Source: a virus | Taxonomy: Duplodnaviria; Heunggongvirae; Uroviricota; Caudoviricetes | IMG/VR virus record: IMGVR_UViG_3300014625_000033 | Strand: one strand, 5' to 3' | Length of the DNA: 12,579 bases | Shown: positions 642 through 10,029 of the stretch, one piece after another | Numbering within the stretch: position 1 is the stretch's first letter | Layout: each line of letters starts with the position of its first letter | The notes under the pieces: model-generated | The model's input: the letters and a program-made list of their open reading frames with translations, nothing else | Told to the model about the DNA's origin: nothing | Databases searched by the model: none | Made by a program: the position numbers and the translations under genes

Positions 642-848
642 CTTCATTTTCACTTTCTTAAATCTAACGACAGATGGCTAACATTTAAGTATTGTGAAAT
701 ATTATCAAATGTAATCATCATTGATTTACAAAAGATACATTTTGCCCCGAAAGGATTTCTGTCAGAAACATCAAAAGATGATGTTCTATACTGAGAACCA
801 TGGCAACACGGGCATCTAAAGTGAATATGGTTTGTAATATTTTCTACC

Positions 849-1061
849 TCAAAGTGCCACTACATGAACAGCTGCAGGGCCTTTAGGTCCGTTCTCAATA
901 CCAAATTCGACTTCCTGATTCTCAGTTAACGTTTTGAAATCGTTGCTCTGAATAGCTGAGAAATGCACAAACACATCTTTGCTACCATCTTTCGGCGTGA
1001 TGAAACCAAAACCTTTTTCAGGGTTAAACCATTTCACTAAACCAGTCATTTTGTTAGACAT
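849..1061 (-). CDS. cspI: Cold-shock protein CspI (CspA family, S1-like cold-shock domain), 70 aa
   Basis: Translation [70 protein letters not shown] carries the RNP1/RNP2 motifs (KGFGFI, VFVHF) and matches CspI as I recall it. SD AAGG upstream of the tandem ATGs. Confidence 0.9.
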
Positions 1062-1204
1062 CATTATTACCTTTTGAAGAAGTTAGCCCTTGGGCAGAAT
1101 GGTCCGAAAAAAAATATCAGAAAGAAAAACCAACAAGGAAATCTCAAGAGGTACAAATAATAAAATTATAACAATGACTGCTTCAGATAATTTTGTAACA
1201 AACC

Positions 1205-1241
1205 AGAACACCATTAACGCATGATTAACCAACCATAGCAA
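1205..1241 (-). promoter_or_regulatory. Candidate cspA-type promoter for cspI: -35 TTGCTA (1241..1236), 17-bp spacer, -10 GTTAAT (1218..1213), AT-rich UP-like region upstream; predicts a 5'UTR of about 145 nt
   Basis: Minus-strand read: TTGCTAtggttggttaatcatgcGTTAAT. This resembles the cspA promoter architecture (TTGCAT / CTTAAT), and the predicted leader length matches the long leaders typical of cold-shock genes. Confidence 0.4.
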
Positions 1242-3101: not shown

Positions 3102-3170
3102 TAGCTAAAAATATCGTATAATCTTACACTTCAAAAAATAACTTTATAAAATACCATCACATCATATCTT

Positions 3171-3884
3171 CTAAGAAAATCTTGATAAATATTGGTGCGG
3201 AGGCACACCAAAATATCCTCTAAAAACACTTACAAAATATGATGCATTGTCATACCCGCATATTCCCGCCACCTTGCCGACAGTATGGTTACTGTAGATC
3301 AATAATCTTTGCGCCATCATCATTCGTTCTTCAAGAATTAATTTACTAAACGATAATCCTTCGTCTTTTAATTTTCTTTTTAACAAACTCTCGCTCATAT
3401 ATAATCTTGAAGATATATCACAAAGTCTCCATGACGCAGAGATATCCGAGTGAATAATAGCCTTAACTTTACAACCTAAGCTATTAAGACTTCCGAACAA
3501 AAAACTTTGCACTATTTTCTCTGAAGATAAGACAGCAAGACATGCAAGTGATATTTGATTTCTAACTACATCCACGGTTTTGCTATCACAATTCAAGCAT
3601 GCAACCAAGTTCTTTAACAATGAAAAATCTTCACATTCTACTATCAAGTATGACGGATAAAACCTTCTTACAGAAAAAGGTGAGAGTGTGTAGTTTTTAA
3701 AGAAATCATTAACTGTTTTCTCCTCAACATCTACGATCATTAGATGATCTGTATTTGACGAAAAAAGATCTTTTAAATTGTATTCAATGAGGACAGCATT
3801 TCCTTTTTTAAACAAAATATCTTCTTTACCAATTCGGACACCAAACGAGTTCAACACCAAAATGATAGAACATATGTATGGCAT
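3171..3884 (-). CDS. AraC/XylS-family transcriptional regulator (AppY/Rns-like short type), 237 aa from ATG at 3884; markedly AT-rich cargo gene
   Basis: C-terminal double HTH typical of AraC/XylS (…SESLLKRKLKDEGLSFSKLILEERMMMAQRLL…VGKVAGICGYDNASYFVSVFRGYFGVPPHQYLSRF). SD AGGTGGA precedes the ATG at 3884; the ORF-track start at 3893 is GTG. Base composition is far lower in GC than the flanking phage genes. Confidence 0.8.
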   Translation of the reverse strand: MPYICSIILVLNSFGVRIGKEDILFKKGNAVLIEYNLKDLFSSNTDHLMIVDVEEKTVNDFFKNYTLSPFSVRRFYPSYLIVECEDFSLLKNLVACLNCDSKTVDVVRNQISLACLAVLSSEKIVQSFLFGSLNSLGCKVKAIIHSDISASWRLCDISSRLYMSESLLKRKLKDEGLSFSKLILEERMMMAQRLLIYSNHTVGKVAGICGYDNASYFVSVFRGYFGVPPHQYLSRFS

Positions 3885-7522: not shown

Positions 7523-7772
7523 CAGCCCGAGTTCCGGTATCCCTGGTGTCGATAGCCTTCCAGCGTTCGAATATCTTCACTCGATTAACGCTAAGCGCTC
7601 GCTGATCAACCGCGCCACCTTCATATGTGACACGCTGAACATCGATGTTCGGGCGCTCTTTCAAAGCCCAGAATGCTTCAGTGATTAATATCGTCGCCTG
7701 CTCCTGTGTCATTCCTGGTCGACATATCCAGGCATCCAGAGCCTCACGAGCCTGTTCAGGAGTGATTTTCAT
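7512..7772 (-). CDS. rem: Rem-like small protein, 86 aa
   Basis: ATG at 7772; translation MKITPEQAREALDAWICRPGMTQEQATILITEAFWALKERPNIDVQRVTYEGG... Synteny with K-12 Qin rem. It overlaps both neighbours (dicC-like 3' end and ydfU 5' end). Confidence 0.6.
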   Translation of the reverse strand: MKITPEQAREALDAWICRPGMTQEQATILITEAFWALKERPNIDVQRVTYEGGAVDQRALSVNRVKIFERWKAIDTRDTGTRAGGR

Positions 7773-7983
7773 TGTTCAACCGCCCCGCCCGCTTCGTCTT
7801 ACGATATTCGTCATAAACTTTGGGATCATACTGAAGCTCCCCGCCAGATGCCTCCTGTAGACGCATCGCGCGACCTTCAGGAACCAGTATCCCCCAAGCA
7901 GCAACACTTGCCAGTCTCACTCCTGCGGCATTGGCAAGCTTTGTTTTGCTGCCAAAAAAAGTAATTGCGTCAACTTTAAGCAT
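7756..7983 (-). CDS. dicC: Cro-like regulator DicC (YdaS/DicC family), 75 aa from ATG at 7983
   Basis: Small ORF divergent from the dicA-like repressor across an operator-containing intergenic region; SD AGAGGGGG; length about 76 aa as for DicC. Identification is by position, size and partial sequence recall. Confidence 0.7.
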   Translation of the reverse strand: MLKVDAITFFGSKTKLANAAGVRLASVAAWGILVPEGRAMRLQEASGGELQYDPKVYDEYRKTKRAGRLNNENHS

Positions 7984-7996
7984 CAAAGCCCCCTCT

Positions 7997-8063: not shown

Positions 8064-8471
8064 ATGGATACAAGAACCCTAGGCCAGCGAGTTCTGGCGC
8101 GACGAAAAGAATTACGCTTAACACAACGAGAAGCTGCGCGCCTCGCTGGAGTTGCTCACGTCACAATTTCACAATGGGAAAGAGACGAAACCCAGCCAGT
8201 CGGAAAACGATTGTTTGCTTTAGCGGATGCTCTGAAGTGCTCACCTACATGGCTAATGTTTGGTGACGAAGACAAGGCACCAGTGCCTGCACAAGAACTT
8301 CATGTGGAAACAGAGCTAACTCCCAACCACAAAGAATTGATCGAATTATTCGATGCTCTTCCATCTTCCGAGCAGGAAGCCTTGCTGTCTGAAATGCGCG
8401 CAAGAGTAGAAAACTTCAACAAACTCTTCGAAGAAATGCTTAAAGCGCGTAAAAATAAATCAATAAAATAA
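8064..8471 (+). CDS. dicA: DicA-type prophage repressor (HTH_XRE / cI-like), 135 aa
   Basis: N-terminal HTH (LTQREAARLAGVAHVTISQWER) and the segment KRLFALADALKCSPTWLMFGDEDK...NFNKLFEEMLKAR resemble DicA as I recall it. Weak or absent SD suggests a near-leaderless mRNA, like lambda cI from PRM. Confidence 0.85.
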   Translation: MDTRTLGQRVLARRKELRLTQREAARLAGVAHVTISQWERDETQPVGKRLFALADALKCSPTWLMFGDEDKAPVPAQELHVETELTPNHKELIELFDALPSSEQEALLSEMRARVENFNKLFEEMLKARKNKSIK

Positions 8472-8639: not shown

Positions 8640-8792
8640 ATGGATACTATCGATCTTGGCAACAGCGAATCTCTGGTATGTGGCGTGTTCCCCAACCAGG
8701 ACGGTACGTTCACCGCGATGACATATACCAAAAGCAAAACGTTTAAAACCGAATCTGGCGCGCGTTGCTGGTTAGCCAGAAACACTGACTGA
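8640..8792 (+). CDS. ydfA: YdfA-like small protein (DUF1391), 50 aa from ATG at 8640
   Basis: MDTIDLGNSESLVCGVFPNQDGTFTAMTYTKSKTFKTESGARCWLARNTD; SD GAGG 5 nt upstream. The ORF-track start at 8586 is GTG and lacks an SD. Confidence 0.7.
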   Translation: MDTIDLGNSESLVCGVFPNQDGTFTAMTYTKSKTFKTESGARCWLARNTD

Positions 8793-9169
8793 TGAGGCTG
8801 ACGATGGAATTTAAAGATTTACCGTCTGATGTACAGAAAACAGCAGCTCATACATTGCATTCTGTGCTGCGAGAAATCGGGAAAGATATTGCAAGCGAGC
8901 CAGCAAAAGATCTGGCCCGGAAAATCAAGACCGCTTTCGTTGAGCTTTGTAATGTTGGCACTGACTCTGAAACTGTCGAGACCAAGACCGTAAGTTCACC
9001 AATATTCTCACTTGAGCCAGGCGTATTATCAGGTGAAATATGCACCGAGATTTCCAGCGAACTGCTTCCGGTAATACGAGAAGCAATTTGCCGTCGCGGT
9101 TTGGATGGAAGTTACGATCATGACGTCCTGCAAGTTCTCAGGACAATGGTGACTTCACTGGGGATTTGA
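8792..9169 (+). CDS. YdfB/YdfC-region hypothetical protein, 125 aa (alternative start ATG 8804 with SD GAGG, 121 aa)
   Basis: Intact ORF; ATG 8792 overlaps the ydfA stop (TGATG). K-12 has two short ORFs (ydfB, ydfC) here; this looks like a single longer reading frame. Confidence 0.55.
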   Translation: MRLTMEFKDLPSDVQKTAAHTLHSVLREIGKDIASEPAKDLARKIKTAFVELCNVGTDSETVETKTVSSPIFSLEPGVLSGEICTEISSELLPVIREAICRRGLDGSYDHDVLQVLRTMVTSLGI

Positions 9170-9338
9170 TCCCTGCGTCCTCTAACCTTTTGATATAGCG
9201 GTCCTCCAAGAAGCGGTAAATTTTGTCGAAATCATCTTTCCCCTCTGGTTTATTCAGAGGATTACAGGACCCGTAAGTAGCGGCATACATTTCAACCGTT
9301 TTATCAAAAATATAAGAGACAAATTCTTCTTTAGTCAT
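9138..9338 (-). CDS. Small hypothetical protein, 66 aa (MTKEEFVSYIFDKTVEMYAATYGSCNPLNKPEGKDDFDKIYRFLEDRYIKRLEDAGIKSPVKSPLS), antisense to the dicB operon
   Basis: ATG at 9338 with good SD (AAGAAGGA, 7-nt spacing). Hydrophilic, non-repetitive sequence. Its 3' end overlaps the upstream + strand CDS by 32 nt. No homolog recognised. Confidence 0.4.
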   Translation of the reverse strand: MTKEEFVSYIFDKTVEMYAATYGSCNPLNKPEGKDDFDKIYRFLEDRYIKRLEDAGIKSPVKSPLS

Positions 9339-9613
9339 ATAGATTTCCTTCTTGGTTATTCGGAATAAGAAGGATACCACCTCGCCTGACGTGGTTAAAA
9401 GCAGGCACACAACACGAAAGCGCACGGCGAAGTTCGTCTCACTGTACAGTGTCGTTAAATTTAATTCGACCGTGCGCTTCCGGTTGTGGCAACCCGCGAA
9501 ATGGCGCGGCGGTAAGTATGGCGGGGTTATTCCTTCCCCGTTGAGGACACCGAGTTGTCAGGTTGACCATACGCTTAAGTGACAACCCCGCTGCAACGCC
9601 CTCTGTTATCAAT

Positions 9614-9671
9614 TTTCTGGTGACGTTTGGCGGTATCAGTTTTACTCCGTGACTGCTCTGCCGCCGTTTTT
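9614..9671 (+). ncRNA. dicF: DicF small regulatory RNA (Hfq-dependent, represses ftsZ translation)
   Basis: Sequence TTTCTGGTGACGTTTGGCGGTATCAGTTTTACTCCGTGACTGCTCTGCCGCCGTTTTT matches the E. coli DicF sequence I recall almost base for base, including the terminal hairpin and U-tract. Confidence 0.9.
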
Positions 9672-9840
9672 AAAGTGAATTTTGTGATGCGGTGAATGCG
9701 GCTAAGCGCACGCGGAACAGTTAAAACCAAAAACAGTGTTATGGGTGGATTCTCTGTATCCGGCGTTAATTGTTAACTGGTTAACGTCACCTGGAGGCAC
9801 CAGGCACTGCATCACAAAATTCATTGTTGAGGACGCGATA

Positions 9841-10029
9841 ATGAAAACGTTATTACCAAACGTTAATACGTCTGAAGGTTGTTTTGAAATTGGTGTCACT
9901 ATCAGTAACCCTGTATTTACTGAAGATGCCATTAACAAGAGAAAACAAGAACGGGAGCTATTAAATAAAATATGCATTGTTTCAATGCTGGCTCGTTTAC
10001 GTCTGATGCCAAAAGGATGTGCACAATGA
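9841..10029 (+). CDS. dicB: Cell-division inhibitor DicB, 62 aa
   Basis: MKTLLPNVNTSEGCFEIGVTISNPVFTEDAINKRKQERELLNKICIVSMLARLRLMPKGCAQ matches DicB as I recall it. SD GAGGA 6 nt upstream. The ORF-track extension upstream (from 9736) is leader, not coding. Confidence 0.9.
   Translation: MKTLLPNVNTSEGCFEIGVTISNPVFTEDAINKRKQERELLNKICIVSMLARLRLMPKGCAQ

What the first reader, a model, noticed from the sequence alone, without database searches (positions are those of the whole stretch)
9138..9613. Unannotated-looking small gene antisense to the dicB operon, with its SD inside a 7-bp hairpin, next to the DicF precursor region
A 66-aa hydrophilic ORF on the minus strand (9338..9138) has a good SD/ATG and overlaps the 3' end of the upstream + strand gene. 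I do not recall a gene in this orientation in the K-12 dicB operon. Its SD (AAGAAGGA) forms the 3' arm of an inverted repeat, CCTTCTT-N13-AAGAAGG (9347-9373), which could occlude the ribosome-binding site. The same palindrome lies in the dicB-operon transcript upstream of DicF, where RNase processing that generates DicF occurs. It could be a real antisense-encoded regulator or a structured RNA element.
Basis: partly seen in the sequence, partly recalled or inferred. Interest (0 to 1): 0.5.

Follow-up and report, generated by a model that had tools for sequence, protein, structure and literature searches.

The report
Small prophage gene opposing dicB operon
The 66-codon reverse-strand reading frame is a real, conserved but uncharacterised small prophage gene, already annotated as "hypothetical" and present in E. 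coli B/BL21; it appears to be expressed while the toxic dicB operon is silent, and its hairpin is not part of DicF processing.

Summary
A 66-aa ORF lies on the minus strand (9338..9138). It overlaps the 3' end of the + strand 125-aa gene by 32 nt. Its Shine-Dalgarno sequence is the 3' arm of a perfect 8-bp inverted repeat (9346-9353 / 9367-9374).

The ORF is a real gene. dN/dS is 0.11-0.28 against homologues down to 54% identity. It matches PHROG 34441 over its full length and is annotated by PGAP as WP_000159335.1. It occurs in 390 of 5426 complete E. coli genomes, including REL606 and BL21(DE3), and in phage mEp460. Published LTEE Ribo-seq counts give it the highest ribosome density in the locus while dicB and ydfD read zero.

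It is not "unannotated", and it is not tied to DicF. The gene sits in a mosaic module (about 8784-9396) that K-12 lacks and that also occurs in prophages without dicF. The RNase III stem that makes the DicF precursor is a separate structure at 9408-9490.

The gene always travels with the C-terminal ~50 aa of the convergent gene. SD sequestration is predicted in the E. coli-type and one related lineage but not in the two most distant ones, and covariation is weak. A conserved extended -10 motif overlaps the anti-SD arm.

Protein function is unknown; the predicted fold is a two-helix hairpin.

The parts
9138..9338 (-). 66-aa small protein gene (ATG 9338, TGA 9140-9138). Predicted two-helix hairpin; the N-terminal 16 aa are nearly invariant.
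   Evidence: ORF. PHROG 34441 at E 1.5e-50 over 66/66 positions. PGAP CDS WP_000159335.1. dN/dS 0.11-0.28. AF2 pLDDT 83 with helices H3-22 and H31-54. Ribo-seq counts as ECB_01542.
9346..9374 (-). Anti-SD:SD inverted repeat ('hairpin 2'). On the minus strand the 5' arm UCCUUCUU is at 9374-9367, the loop is 13 nt, and the 3' arm AAGAAGGA (containing the SD) is at 9353-9346.
9376..9395 (-). Upstream GC-rich stem-loop ('hairpin 1'): ACCAC 9395-9391 pairs with GUGGU 9380-9376. It is immediately followed by the U/C-rich tract that forms the anti-SD arm.
   Evidence: MFE folds. The RNAalifold consensus keeps it in 9 of 9 sequences with little covariation.
9371..9398 (-). Candidate promoter of the 66-aa gene: -35 TTAACC (9398-9393), 16-nt spacer, extended -10 TGgTATCCT (9379-9371). 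The predicted TSS is about 9360-9366, inside the hairpin-2 loop.
   Evidence: It is the best sigma-70-like site on the minus strand in 9300-9800. TGnTAYYCT is retained in all seven sequence lineages. This is a prediction only.
9014..9169 (+). C-terminal ~50-aa domain of the convergent 125-aa gene (whole gene 8792-9169; PGAP start 8804). This domain co-travels with the 66-aa gene; the CDS overlap is 9138-9169.
   Evidence: The AF2 model of p125 shows two helical hairpins joined by a disordered linker (low confidence).
8784..9396 (.). Mosaic module that replaces ydfB-ydfC of K-12 Qin. K-12 homology ends at 8783 and resumes at 9397.
   Evidence: blastn of the window against the K-12 locus and the K-12 annotation.
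9408..9490 (+). Not part of the gene. This is the long stem of the dicB-operon RNA whose RNase III cleavage (about 9478) gives the 190-nt DicF precursor.
   Evidence: Inverted repeat 9415-9427 / 9470-9482. Fold with z -4.4. DicF at 9615-9666. Processing described in PMC10448788.

Best explanation
The ORF is a bona fide small accessory (moron-like) gene of DicB/Qin-type and related lambdoid prophages.

**What is shown**
- It encodes a 66-aa acidic protein under purifying selection, predicted to be a two-helix hairpin.
- It is a mobile cassette: about 60 nt of leader plus the ORF. The cassette always faces an early lytic operon, either PL/dicBp-type or, in Cedecea, PR-type.
- It overlaps the 3' end of a convergent small gene or domain tail-to-tail.
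- In REL606-derived cells growing exponentially, its annotated region carries more ribosome footprints than the DicA-like repressor gene, while ydfA, dicB and ydfD are essentially silent.

**What is inferred**
- The gene is transcribed from its own extended -10 promoter (TGgTATCCT, 9379-9371) in the repressed prophage.
- When the early operon fires, convergent transcription and the 3' RNA duplex shut it down. Expression of the 66-aa protein and of the convergent 125-aa protein would then be reciprocal.
- The anti-SD arm overlaps the -10 hexamer. The 8-bp hairpin would therefore form only in transcripts that start further upstream and would block their translation. This is read-through insulation, as in IS10, IS50 and IS200.
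- Alternatively, if the real TSS lies upstream, the hairpin simply throttles translation of the gene's own mRNA.
- The protein most likely acts by binding another protein. The co-inherited C-terminal domain of the convergent gene product is the obvious candidate.

The hairpin has no role in DicF maturation.
For: **Coding**
- dN/dS is 0.11-0.28 in independent pairs. The N-terminal changes are mostly synonymous.
- The frame is intact in 55 of 58 IMG/VR loci.
- Upstream in-frame stops fix the ATG as the start.
- The gene matches PHROG 34441 and is annotated by PGAP.

**Expression**
- Favate et al. 2022, Ribo-seq DESeq2 baseMean: ECB_01542 45.6, dicA-like 26.1, p125 12.9, ydfA 0.67, dicB 0, ydfD 0.
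- The tag was mapped to the ORF by gene order and lengths.

**Cassette and orientation**
- The same layout occurs in four unrelated contexts.
- It is combined with at least four repressor types and occurs with or without dicF/dicB.
- It is present in the functional phage mEp460.
- An unrelated antisense small gene occupies the same slot in Serratia.

**Partner**
- The C-domain is found with the gene in 55 of 57 uncut loci. In Cedecea it is a stand-alone ~53-aa ORF.

**Promoter and hairpin**
-.
- IS200 precedent: PMC4513863.

**Not DicF**
-.
Against: - No transcription start site has been measured.
- The candidate promoter has only 4/6 + 4/6 hexamer matches, and Cedecea and L003 lack a recognisable -35.
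- The kallisto quantification in the LTEE study does not state strandedness, and it used the 288-nt annotation that includes the leader.
- No intrinsic terminator is predicted downstream of the gene, which is unlike a textbook moron.
- Base composition is not atypical.
- Hairpin covariation is weak: one compensatory pair, and an RNAalifold covariation term of -0.18.
- One stem pair is broken in three lineages.
- The SD is not predicted to be sequestered in Cedecea or L132.
- Two loci keep p125 but have deleted the 66-aa gene, so the 66-aa protein is not indispensable to its partner.
- The partner in L132 is not detectably homologous.
- No functional hint came from Pfam, NCBIfam, PADLOC or the PDB fold search.
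Confidence: 0.6

Rival explanations
1. The hairpin is a translational attenuator or sensor in the gene's own mRNA. Transcription would start upstream of hairpin 1. The 5' UTR would fold into two stem-loops, and the second would hide the SD. Translation would then be low unless the stem melts (as in an RNA thermometer) or is opened by a factor or by cleavage. This is essentially the first reader's idea.
For: - SD pairing probability is 0.96-0.98 in five sequence variants, reached by 1-5% of upstream shuffles.
- The stem is lengthened to 11 bp in L003/L006 and to 7+3 bp in L065 by changes outside the -10 hexamer. There is one CG-to-UA compensatory pair.
- U.G wobbles at pair 7 are compatible only with the sense strand.
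Against: - No sigma-70-like promoter is found upstream of hairpin 1 on the minus strand until 9776.
- Conservation among contexts begins only about 65-95 nt before the ATG.
- The SD is not sequestered in the Cedecea and L132 lineages.
- Pair 8 changes in L009 and L010 fit the opposite strand better.
- The five invariant stem pairs are equally explained by a conserved -10 element plus a conserved SD.
Confidence: 0.25
2. The inverted repeat has no function of its own. A C/U-rich promoter-proximal stretch would happen to be complementary to a purine-rich SD. The repeat is also not a DNA operator.
For: - 8-bp inverted repeats are frequent in this window: 11 observed.
- The covariation term is near zero.
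- Pairing is lost in the two most divergent lineages.
- The z-score is only -1.2 in a 61-nt context.
Against: - The expected chance of a perfect 8-mer complement falling on a given SD is about 3e-4.
- The stem was extended independently in L003/L006 and in L065.
Confidence: 0.15
3. The element belongs to DicF biogenesis. The palindrome would be a structured part of the dicB-operon transcript that guides RNase processing upstream of DicF, and the ORF would be incidental.
For: The + strand RNA can also form the hairpin (dG -9.8), and it lies in the same polycistronic transcript as DicF.
Against: - K-12 makes DicF without this sequence; its homology begins at 9397.
- RNase III cleavage for the 190-nt species maps to the separate long stem at 9408-9490.
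- An 8-bp stem is too short for RNase III (established knowledge).
- The module occurs in loci with no dicF hit: L010, L061-L065, L003, L004.
- The ORF is under purifying selection.
- U.G pairs in three lineages become C.A mismatches on the + strand.
Confidence: 0.03
4. The pair is a toxin-antitoxin-like system. One of the two convergent small proteins would be toxic and the other, or the antisense overlap, would neutralise it.
For: - The convergent pair with a 3' overlap is conserved.
- An SD-sequestering leader is typical of type I toxins.
- Many prophage TA modules sit near immunity regions (established knowledge).
Against: - The 66-aa protein is hydrophilic and acidic, with no membrane helix.
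- There is no PADLOC, Pfam or NCBIfam match.
- Each partner can be lost separately: L087 and L090 keep p125 alone, and L066-L068 lose both bodies.
- The 66-aa region is ribosome-occupied in healthy exponential cells.
Confidence: 0.07

Closest known systems
Lysogeny-expressed accessory genes ('morons') set against early operons of lambdoid phages, e.g. lambda sieB in the PL region (from my own knowledge of the lambda map)
   Same: - It is a small gene embedded in the early-left region and oriented against the early promoter.
- It is present or absent among otherwise similar prophages.
- It is apparently expressed while the early operon is repressed.
   Different: - There is no sequence or fold similarity to any characterised moron.
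- No terminator is predicted and base composition is not atypical.
- It overlaps a convergent gene tail-to-tail and co-travels with that gene's C-terminal domain.
- No exclusion or defence phenotype is known (PADLOC negative).
IS200 / IS10 / IS50 leader architecture. IS200 is documented in PMC4513863. IS10 and IS50 read-through protection is from my own knowledge (Davis, Simons & Kleckner 1985; Schulz & Reznikoff 1991).
   Same: - There are two inverted repeats ahead of a small mobile gene.
- An upstream GC-rich stem is followed by a U/C-rich tract, and a second stem pairs an anti-SD with the SD.
- In IS10 and IS50 the native promoter lies inside the structure, so only outside transcripts are silenced. 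The predicted -10 here overlaps the anti-SD arm.
   Different: - This is not a transposase and there are no terminal repeats.
- Hairpin 1 is a weak terminator candidate and was not called by the scan.
- The TSS is not mapped.
- The structure is not conserved in the two most distant family members.
DicF precursor processing elements of Qin (Faubladier 1990; Ragunathan 2023, PMC10448788)
   Same: It lies in the same polycistronic dicB-operon transcript, upstream of DicF.
   Different: - It lies outside the DNA shared with K-12.
- It is a separate structure from the RNase III stem.
- The module exists without dicF.
Type I toxin-antitoxin loci
   Same: Small ORF, SD hidden in a leader hairpin, and an overlapping convergent transcript.
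   Different: - The protein is hydrophilic, acidic and helical, not a membrane peptide.
- The overlapping partner is a protein-coding mRNA.
- There is no evidence of toxicity.

Membership tests
PHROG 34441 (phage protein family of unknown function) | Significant full-length match to the family HMM | tested here: met
   E 1.5e-50, 170 bits, residues 1-66 on profile positions 1-66 of 66.
Real protein-coding gene (versus chance ORF or shadow) | Purifying selection in this frame across diverged homologues | tested here: met
   NG86 dN/dS is 0.11 (Cedecea), 0.24-0.28 (L003/L006) and 0.23-0.28 (L010/L065). Third-position changes dominate in the distant pairs.
Real protein-coding gene (versus chance ORF or shadow) | No longer ORF on the opposite strand that could explain the open frame | tested here: met
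   There is no + strand ORF of 30 aa or more over 9170-9351. The only exception is Cedecea, where the partner ORF has lost its stop codon.
Real protein-coding gene (versus chance ORF or shadow) | Evidence of translation | tested here: inconclusive
   Published Ribo-seq counts for ECB_01542 are the highest in the locus. Strandedness and periodicity could not be checked, and the tag was mapped by gene order and lengths.
DicF RNA / DicF precursor element | Match to Rfam RF00039, or location within the conserved precursor shared with K-12 | tested here: not met
   The DicF hit is at 9615-9666 only. K-12 homology begins at 9397, and the palindrome at 9346-9374 lies outside it.
DicF RNA / DicF precursor element | Coincides with the RNase III or RNase E processing site | tested here: not met
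   The 190-nt species' 5' end is calculated at about 9478, within the long stem 9408-9490. The palindrome is about 100 nt upstream of that.
DicF RNA / DicF precursor element | Co-occurrence with dicF | tested here: not met
   The module is present in L003, L004, L006, L010 and L061-L065 without a dicF hit.
SD-sequestering cis-regulatory leader (IS200/IS10-type or RNA thermometer-like) | The anti-SD pairs with the SD in the predicted ensemble | tested here: met
   P(SD paired) is 0.96-0.98 in the window, L009, L010, L065 and L003, reached by 3-16 of 300 shuffles.
SD-sequestering cis-regulatory leader (IS200/IS10-type or RNA thermometer-like) | Structure conserved across the whole family | tested here: not met
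   P(SD paired) is 0.48 in Cedecea L004 and 0.33 in L132, both below the shuffle means.
SD-sequestering cis-regulatory leader (IS200/IS10-type or RNA thermometer-like) | Compensatory base changes | tested here: inconclusive
   One pair changes CG to UA. The RNAalifold covariation term is -0.18. The stem is extended in L003 and L065, but pair 8 is broken in three lineages.
SD-sequestering cis-regulatory leader (IS200/IS10-type or RNA thermometer-like) | The anti-SD arm is present in (or, for read-through insulation, absent from) the native mRNA | not testable with these tools
   This needs a mapped TSS. Only a predicted extended -10 promoter overlapping the arm is available.
Moron (autonomous lysogeny-expressed cassette) | Patchy presence among related prophages and movement between contexts | tested here: met
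   The module is absent from K-12 and present in 390 of 5426 genomes. It occurs in four different genomic contexts.
Moron (autonomous lysogeny-expressed cassette) | Own promoter and own terminator | tested here: inconclusive
   A conserved TGnTAYYCT candidate promoter exists. No intrinsic terminator is predicted downstream.
Moron (autonomous lysogeny-expressed cassette) | Expressed while lytic genes are repressed | tested here: inconclusive
   In LTEE Ribo-seq ECB_01542 reads 45.6 while dicB and ydfD read 0. The strandedness caveat applies.
Type I toxin-antitoxin | Small hydrophobic or membrane-active toxic peptide | tested here: not met
   GRAVY is -0.68 and net charge -1.5. The AF2 model is a soluble two-helix hairpin.
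Known anti-phage defence proteins (PADLOC-DB) | HMM match | tested here: not met
   No family matches at E up to 1 for the 66-aa protein, p125 or the L003 partner.

The most novel reading that the evidence does not exclude
The 66-aa protein and the co-inherited C-terminal domain of the convergent early-operon protein would form a previously undescribed two-protein switch of lambdoid prophages.

The two genes are wired tail-to-tail. Prophage-state transcription of one and early-operon transcription of the other would exclude each other through collision and a 3' RNA duplex. A promoter-embedded anti-SD hairpin would silence any read-through copy. The two helical-hairpin proteins would antagonise each other.

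This would set a threshold for leakage of the toxic DicF/DicB (or cII/replication) functions, or would provide a lysogen-specific exclusion function.
Probability: 0.1. Interest if true: 0.6.

Novelty: new member of a known kind. Interest (0 to 1): 0.35.

Why it matters
The gene sits in E. coli B REL606, BL21 and BL21(DE3), ATCC 8739 and about 7% of complete E. coli genomes. It lies inside the operon that encodes the cell-division inhibitors DicF and DicB. From the available Ribo-seq counts it appears to be the most ribosome-occupied gene of that locus in normally growing cells. Despite this it has never been studied.

Because workhorse laboratory strains carry it, its function and the promoter-versus-hairpin question can be tested with existing strains and probably with existing strand-specific data.

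If the convergent pair acts as a switch on early-operon leakage, it would add a control layer to a system so far studied only in K-12, which lacks the module. If it does not, the gene is one more uncharacterised small prophage protein, and the DicF-processing idea can be dropped.

Tried and rejected
- **Protein family searches.** Pfam gave only a sub-threshold Zn_ribbon_16 hit (E 0.04; the protein has one Cys) and was rejected. NCBIfam and PADLOC gave nothing.
- **Fold search.** Foldseek of the AF2 model against the PDB gave no match with E <= 0.001, only generic helical hairpins.
- **Remote homology.** A profile search of 1.84 billion representative proteins found only about 10 clusters, so the family is tiny and no remote relative was informative.
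- **sRNA-17.** The sRNA-17 of an mEp460-like prophage in E. coli K1 (PMC7719688) looked like a possible match. Its sequence is not in the window, and RS218 is not in the genome collection.
- **Failed or wasted look-ups.** A 50-aa C-domain query to the word-indexed protein search returned no candidates. One exact-sequence cluster look-up was wasted because I gave coordinates shifted by one codon.
- **Partner homology.** hhalign of the L132 partner against the C-domain profile gave probability 0.2%, so homology is not supported.
- **MAFFT alignments.** The leader alignments put the L003 3' arm one column out of register. I counted pairs by hand-anchored arms instead.
- **p125 model.** The AF2 model has low confidence (pLDDT 59) and was not used for fold search.
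- **Literature.** Searches for the locus tags and protein accession found nothing beyond the LTEE tables.
- **Base composition.** The module is not distinctive.
- **The 95-aa GTG start.** Rejected because of upstream in-frame stops in homologues.
Full report
**Setting**

The window is the immunity and early-left region of a DicB/Qin-type lambdoid prophage of E. coli. The features, with their evidence, are:

| Feature | Coordinates | Strand |
|---|---|---|
| dicC-like cro | 7756-7986 | - |
| dicA-like repressor | 8064-8471 | + |
| ydfA (DUF1391) | ending at 8792 | + |
| 125-aa gene ("p125") | 8792-9169 | + |
| DicF (Rfam RF00039, 72.5 bits) | 9615-9666 | + |
| dicB | 9841-10029 | + |

ydfD, an exonuclease, xis and int follow. 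The same arrangement is found in the functional phage mEp460.

**Check of the observation**

- The minus-strand ORF has its ATG at 9338 and its TGA at 9140-9138, and encodes 66 aa.
- It overlaps the 3' end of p125 by 32 nt.
- The inverted repeat is a perfect 8-mer: TCCTTCTT at 9346-9353 and AAGAAGGA at 9367-9374, with a 13-nt loop.
- On the minus-strand RNA the 3' arm contains the SD (AAGGA, 7 nt before the ATG).
- The isolated hairpin has dG -9.8 kcal/mol, with z between -1.2 and -2.3 depending on context.
- Perfect 8-bp inverted repeats with short loops occur 11 times in the window, against 4.1 in shuffles. The repeat alone is therefore not remarkable. Its placement exactly on an SD is expected about 3e-4 of the time.
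- No + strand ORF covers 9170-9351, so the ORF is not a shadow.

**Is it a gene?**

Yes, on the following evidence.

- It matches PHROG 34441 over its whole length (E 1.5e-50).
- PGAP annotates it as hypothetical protein WP_000159335.1.
- Homologues reach down to 54% identity. A profile search of 1.84 billion representative proteins adds one more distant member of 73 aa and shows that the family is very small.
- Nei-Gojobori dN/dS against diverged copies is 0.11-0.28. The invariant N-terminal 16 residues are kept through mostly synonymous changes.
- In 58 IMG/VR loci the frame is intact in 55. The other three retain only the leader plus 15-21 codons next to a recombination junction.
- In-frame stops 5-10 codons upstream of the ATG in several lineages show that the 66-aa form is the conserved one, not the 95-aa GTG form.
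- AlphaFold2 predicts a two-helix hairpin (H3-22, H31-54; pLDDT 83). It has no informative PDB neighbour.
- The protein is acidic and hydrophilic.

**Distribution and expression**

The 259-bp cassette (9138-9396) occurs at 80% or more coverage in 390 of 5426 complete E. coli genomes, nearly always at 99% identity or more. These include REL606, BL21, BL21(DE3), ATCC 8739 and O111:H- 11128.

In the original REL606 annotation the ORF is ECB_01542. I identified it by gene order and by CDS lengths, since the kallisto length equals CDS + 50. The mapping is: 408 dicA-like = ECB_01539; 207 ydfA = 01540; 366 p125 = 01541; 288 = 01542; 189 dicB = 01543; 192 ydfD = 01544; 2472 exonuclease = 01545.

The supplementary tables of Favate et al. 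2022 (PMC9645810) cover exponential-phase cultures. The Ribo-seq DESeq2 baseMean comes from four ancestor and two Ara-1 samples.

| Gene | Ribo-seq DESeq2 baseMean | Ara-1 replicate TPM |
|---|---|---|
| ECB_01542 (this ORF) | 45.6 | 8.6 |
| dicA-like repressor | 26.1 | 4.3 |
| p125 | 12.9 | 2.4 |
| ydfA | 0.67 | 0.5 |
| dicB | 0 | 0 |
| ydfD | 0 | 0 |
| exonuclease | 8.8 | 0.33 |

The first operon gene, ydfA, and the downstream dicB and ydfD are silent. The signal over the ORF is therefore unlikely to come from dicB-operon transcription. This points to autonomous expression in the repressed prophage. Two caveats apply: the paper does not state whether kallisto was run strand-specifically, and I could not inspect periodicity.

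**Relation to DicF**

- blastn against K-12 Qin shows that homology stops at 8783 and resumes at 9397.
- The block 8784-9396 contains most of p125, the 66-aa gene and both leader hairpins. It replaces ydfB-ydfC and about 120 nt of K-12. K-12 produces DicF without this block.
- According to PMC10448788, RNase III generates the 5' end of a 190-nt species and RNase E the 53-nt DicF.
- Given the 3' end near 9667, the 190-nt 5' end falls at about 9478. That is inside a long stem (9408-9490; arms 9415-9427 / 9470-9482), which folds with z -4.4 and is distinct from the palindrome.
- The cassette also occurs in loci without any dicF or dicB hit.

**Context in other elements**

The gene always faces an early operon.

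- In L003 and L006 the order is cI(S24)-type repressor, then a 129-aa gene, then the 65-aa gene in the opposite orientation, with a 56-nt tail-to-tail overlap.
- In L132 (the distant 73-aa member) the order is repressor, then a 63-aa gene, then the 73-aa gene in the opposite orientation, with a 35-nt overlap.
- In Cedecea (L004, L005) it lies between cro and a cII-like gene, antisense to the PR-type operon.
- In E. coli it is combined with at least four different DicA-like repressors (100, 58, 57 and 52% identity). It is therefore not tied to one immunity specificity.

**A conserved partner**

- p125 is modular. An N-terminal ~50-aa domain is shared with proteins that have unrelated C-termini (PHROGs 9419, 1363 and 2151).
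- The C-terminal ~50 aa are found wherever the 66-aa gene is found. In E. coli-type loci identity is 74-100%. In L003 and L006 it is 32-36%.
- In Cedecea the domain is a stand-alone ~53-aa ORF with its own SD (59% identity).
- Searching IMG/VR with the C-domain recovers the same contigs. Of 57 loci not cut by a contig end, 55 have the intact 66-aa gene and 2 carry a ~300-bp deletion of it.
- The partner in L132 is not detectably homologous.
- In Serratia an unrelated 81-aa antisense gene occupies the same slot, overlapping a protein with the p125 N-domain by 26 nt. The position therefore seems to be a general landing site for antisense small genes.
- AF2 suggests that p125 is two helical hairpins joined by a disordered linker, at low confidence.

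**The leader**

About 65 nt upstream of the ATG are conserved across contexts.

*Predicted structure in the closer lineages.* In the E. coli-type and L003-type lineages the leader is predicted to form two adjacent hairpins.

- Hairpin 1: ACCAC at 9395-9391 pairs with GUGGU at 9380-9376.
- Hairpin 2: the anti-SD:SD stem at 9374-9346.
- SD pairing probability is 0.96-0.98, reached by only 1-5% of upstream shuffles.

*Evidence for selection on the stem.*

- L003/L006 extend the stem to 11 bp, and L065 to 7+3 bp.
- Pair 6 shows a CG-to-UA double change.
- Pair 7 is U.G in three lineages, which is compatible only with the sense strand.

*Evidence against.*

- Pair 8 is broken in L009, L010 and L065.
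- RNAalifold finds one compensatory pair and a covariation term of -0.18.
- The two most distant lineages (Cedecea and L132) are not predicted to sequester the SD (0.48 and 0.33, below shuffles).

*The promoter candidate.* What is conserved in all seven lineages is TGnTAYYCT: TGGTATCCT, TGATACCCT or TGTTATTCT. This is an extended -10 motif. Together with TTAACC 16 nt upstream, it is the best sigma-70-like site on the minus strand between 9300 and 9800. The generic scan did not call it because it needs 9 of 12 hexamer matches.

The -10 hexamer (9376-9371) lies inside the anti-SD arm, so a transcript from this promoter would start in the hairpin loop and lack the arm.

*How the two observations fit together.* A hairpin that seems selected and a promoter that would exclude it from the mRNA are compatible if the hairpin silences transcripts that enter from upstream. 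This logic is documented for IS200 (terminator plus SD-sequestering stem; PMC4513863). From my own knowledge it also applies to IS10 and IS50. Without a mapped TSS I cannot decide between this, a simple attenuator, and coincidence.

**Best explanation**

The ORF is an autonomous small accessory gene of lambdoid prophages. It is expressed in the repressed state and set head-on against the early operon. It is coupled tail-to-tail to a co-inherited partner domain. Its leader limits translation to the appropriate transcript.

- Shown: coding selection, cassette mobility, partner co-inheritance, absence from K-12, and separateness from DicF processing.
- Supported, not proven: expression in the repressed state.
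- Inferred: the promoter, the role of the hairpin, reciprocity with the early operon, and any protein-protein interaction.
- Unknown: the protein's biochemical function. Nothing was found in Pfam, NCBIfam, PADLOC or the PDB.

**Novelty and score**

The gene is annotated but uncharacterised. Its kind, a small antisense accessory gene in a prophage early region with an SD-pairing leader, is familiar. The conserved convergent pairing and the promoter-in-hairpin arrangement are new details worth testing, and REL606 and BL21(DE3) make this easy. I rate it a new member of a known kind, with interest 0.35.

Noticed in passing
window 803-1208 (-): Rfam cspA thermoregulator match (111 bits, E 3e-28). 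This is the leader of a prophage-borne cold-shock protein gene.
   Followed up: no
window 9352-9582 (+): A 76-aa TTG ORF matches PHROG 8854 (E 2.4e-26). It lies on the long RNase III stem of the DicF precursor and is not annotated in K-12 or REL606. It is probably a protein family built on conserved RNA-coding DNA.
   Followed up: partly
window 9749-9776 (-): A promoter-like site, TTAACA-16-GAGAAT, lies between dicF and dicB on the minus strand, in DNA shared with K-12. If active it would give an RNA antisense to DicF that reads towards the 66-aa gene.
   Followed up: no
L134 3269-3514 (-), Serratia prophage: An unrelated 81-aa gene sits in the same antisense slot. It overlaps by 26 nt the 3' end of a 97-aa protein that carries the p125 N-terminal domain. 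This suggests a recurrent landing site for antisense small genes.
   Followed up: partly
L004 3568-3897 (-), Cedecea prophage: The stand-alone homologue of the p125 C-domain has lost its stop codon and stays open for 109 codons. It runs through the entire 66-aa gene on the opposite strand.
   Followed up: partly
L087 and L090 (about 3150-3240); L066-L068: Natural variants exist. A ~300-bp deletion removes the 66-aa gene but keeps p125 intact. Other prophages keep only the leader plus the first 15-21 codons next to a recombination junction.
   Followed up: partly
window 8792-9169 (+): p125 is modular. A ~50-aa N-terminal domain is shared with proteins of different C-termini in Enterobacter, Serratia and others (PHROGs 9419, 1363, 2151). 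A predicted disordered linker and then the cassette-linked C-domain follow.
   Followed up: partly
NC_012967.1 1624621-1624908 (REL606), equivalent to window 9138-9425: The original REL606 annotation (ECB_01542) uses a 95-aa GTG start that includes both leader hairpins. Homologues have in-frame stops there, so expression tables keyed to that tag mix leader and CDS reads.
   Followed up: yes
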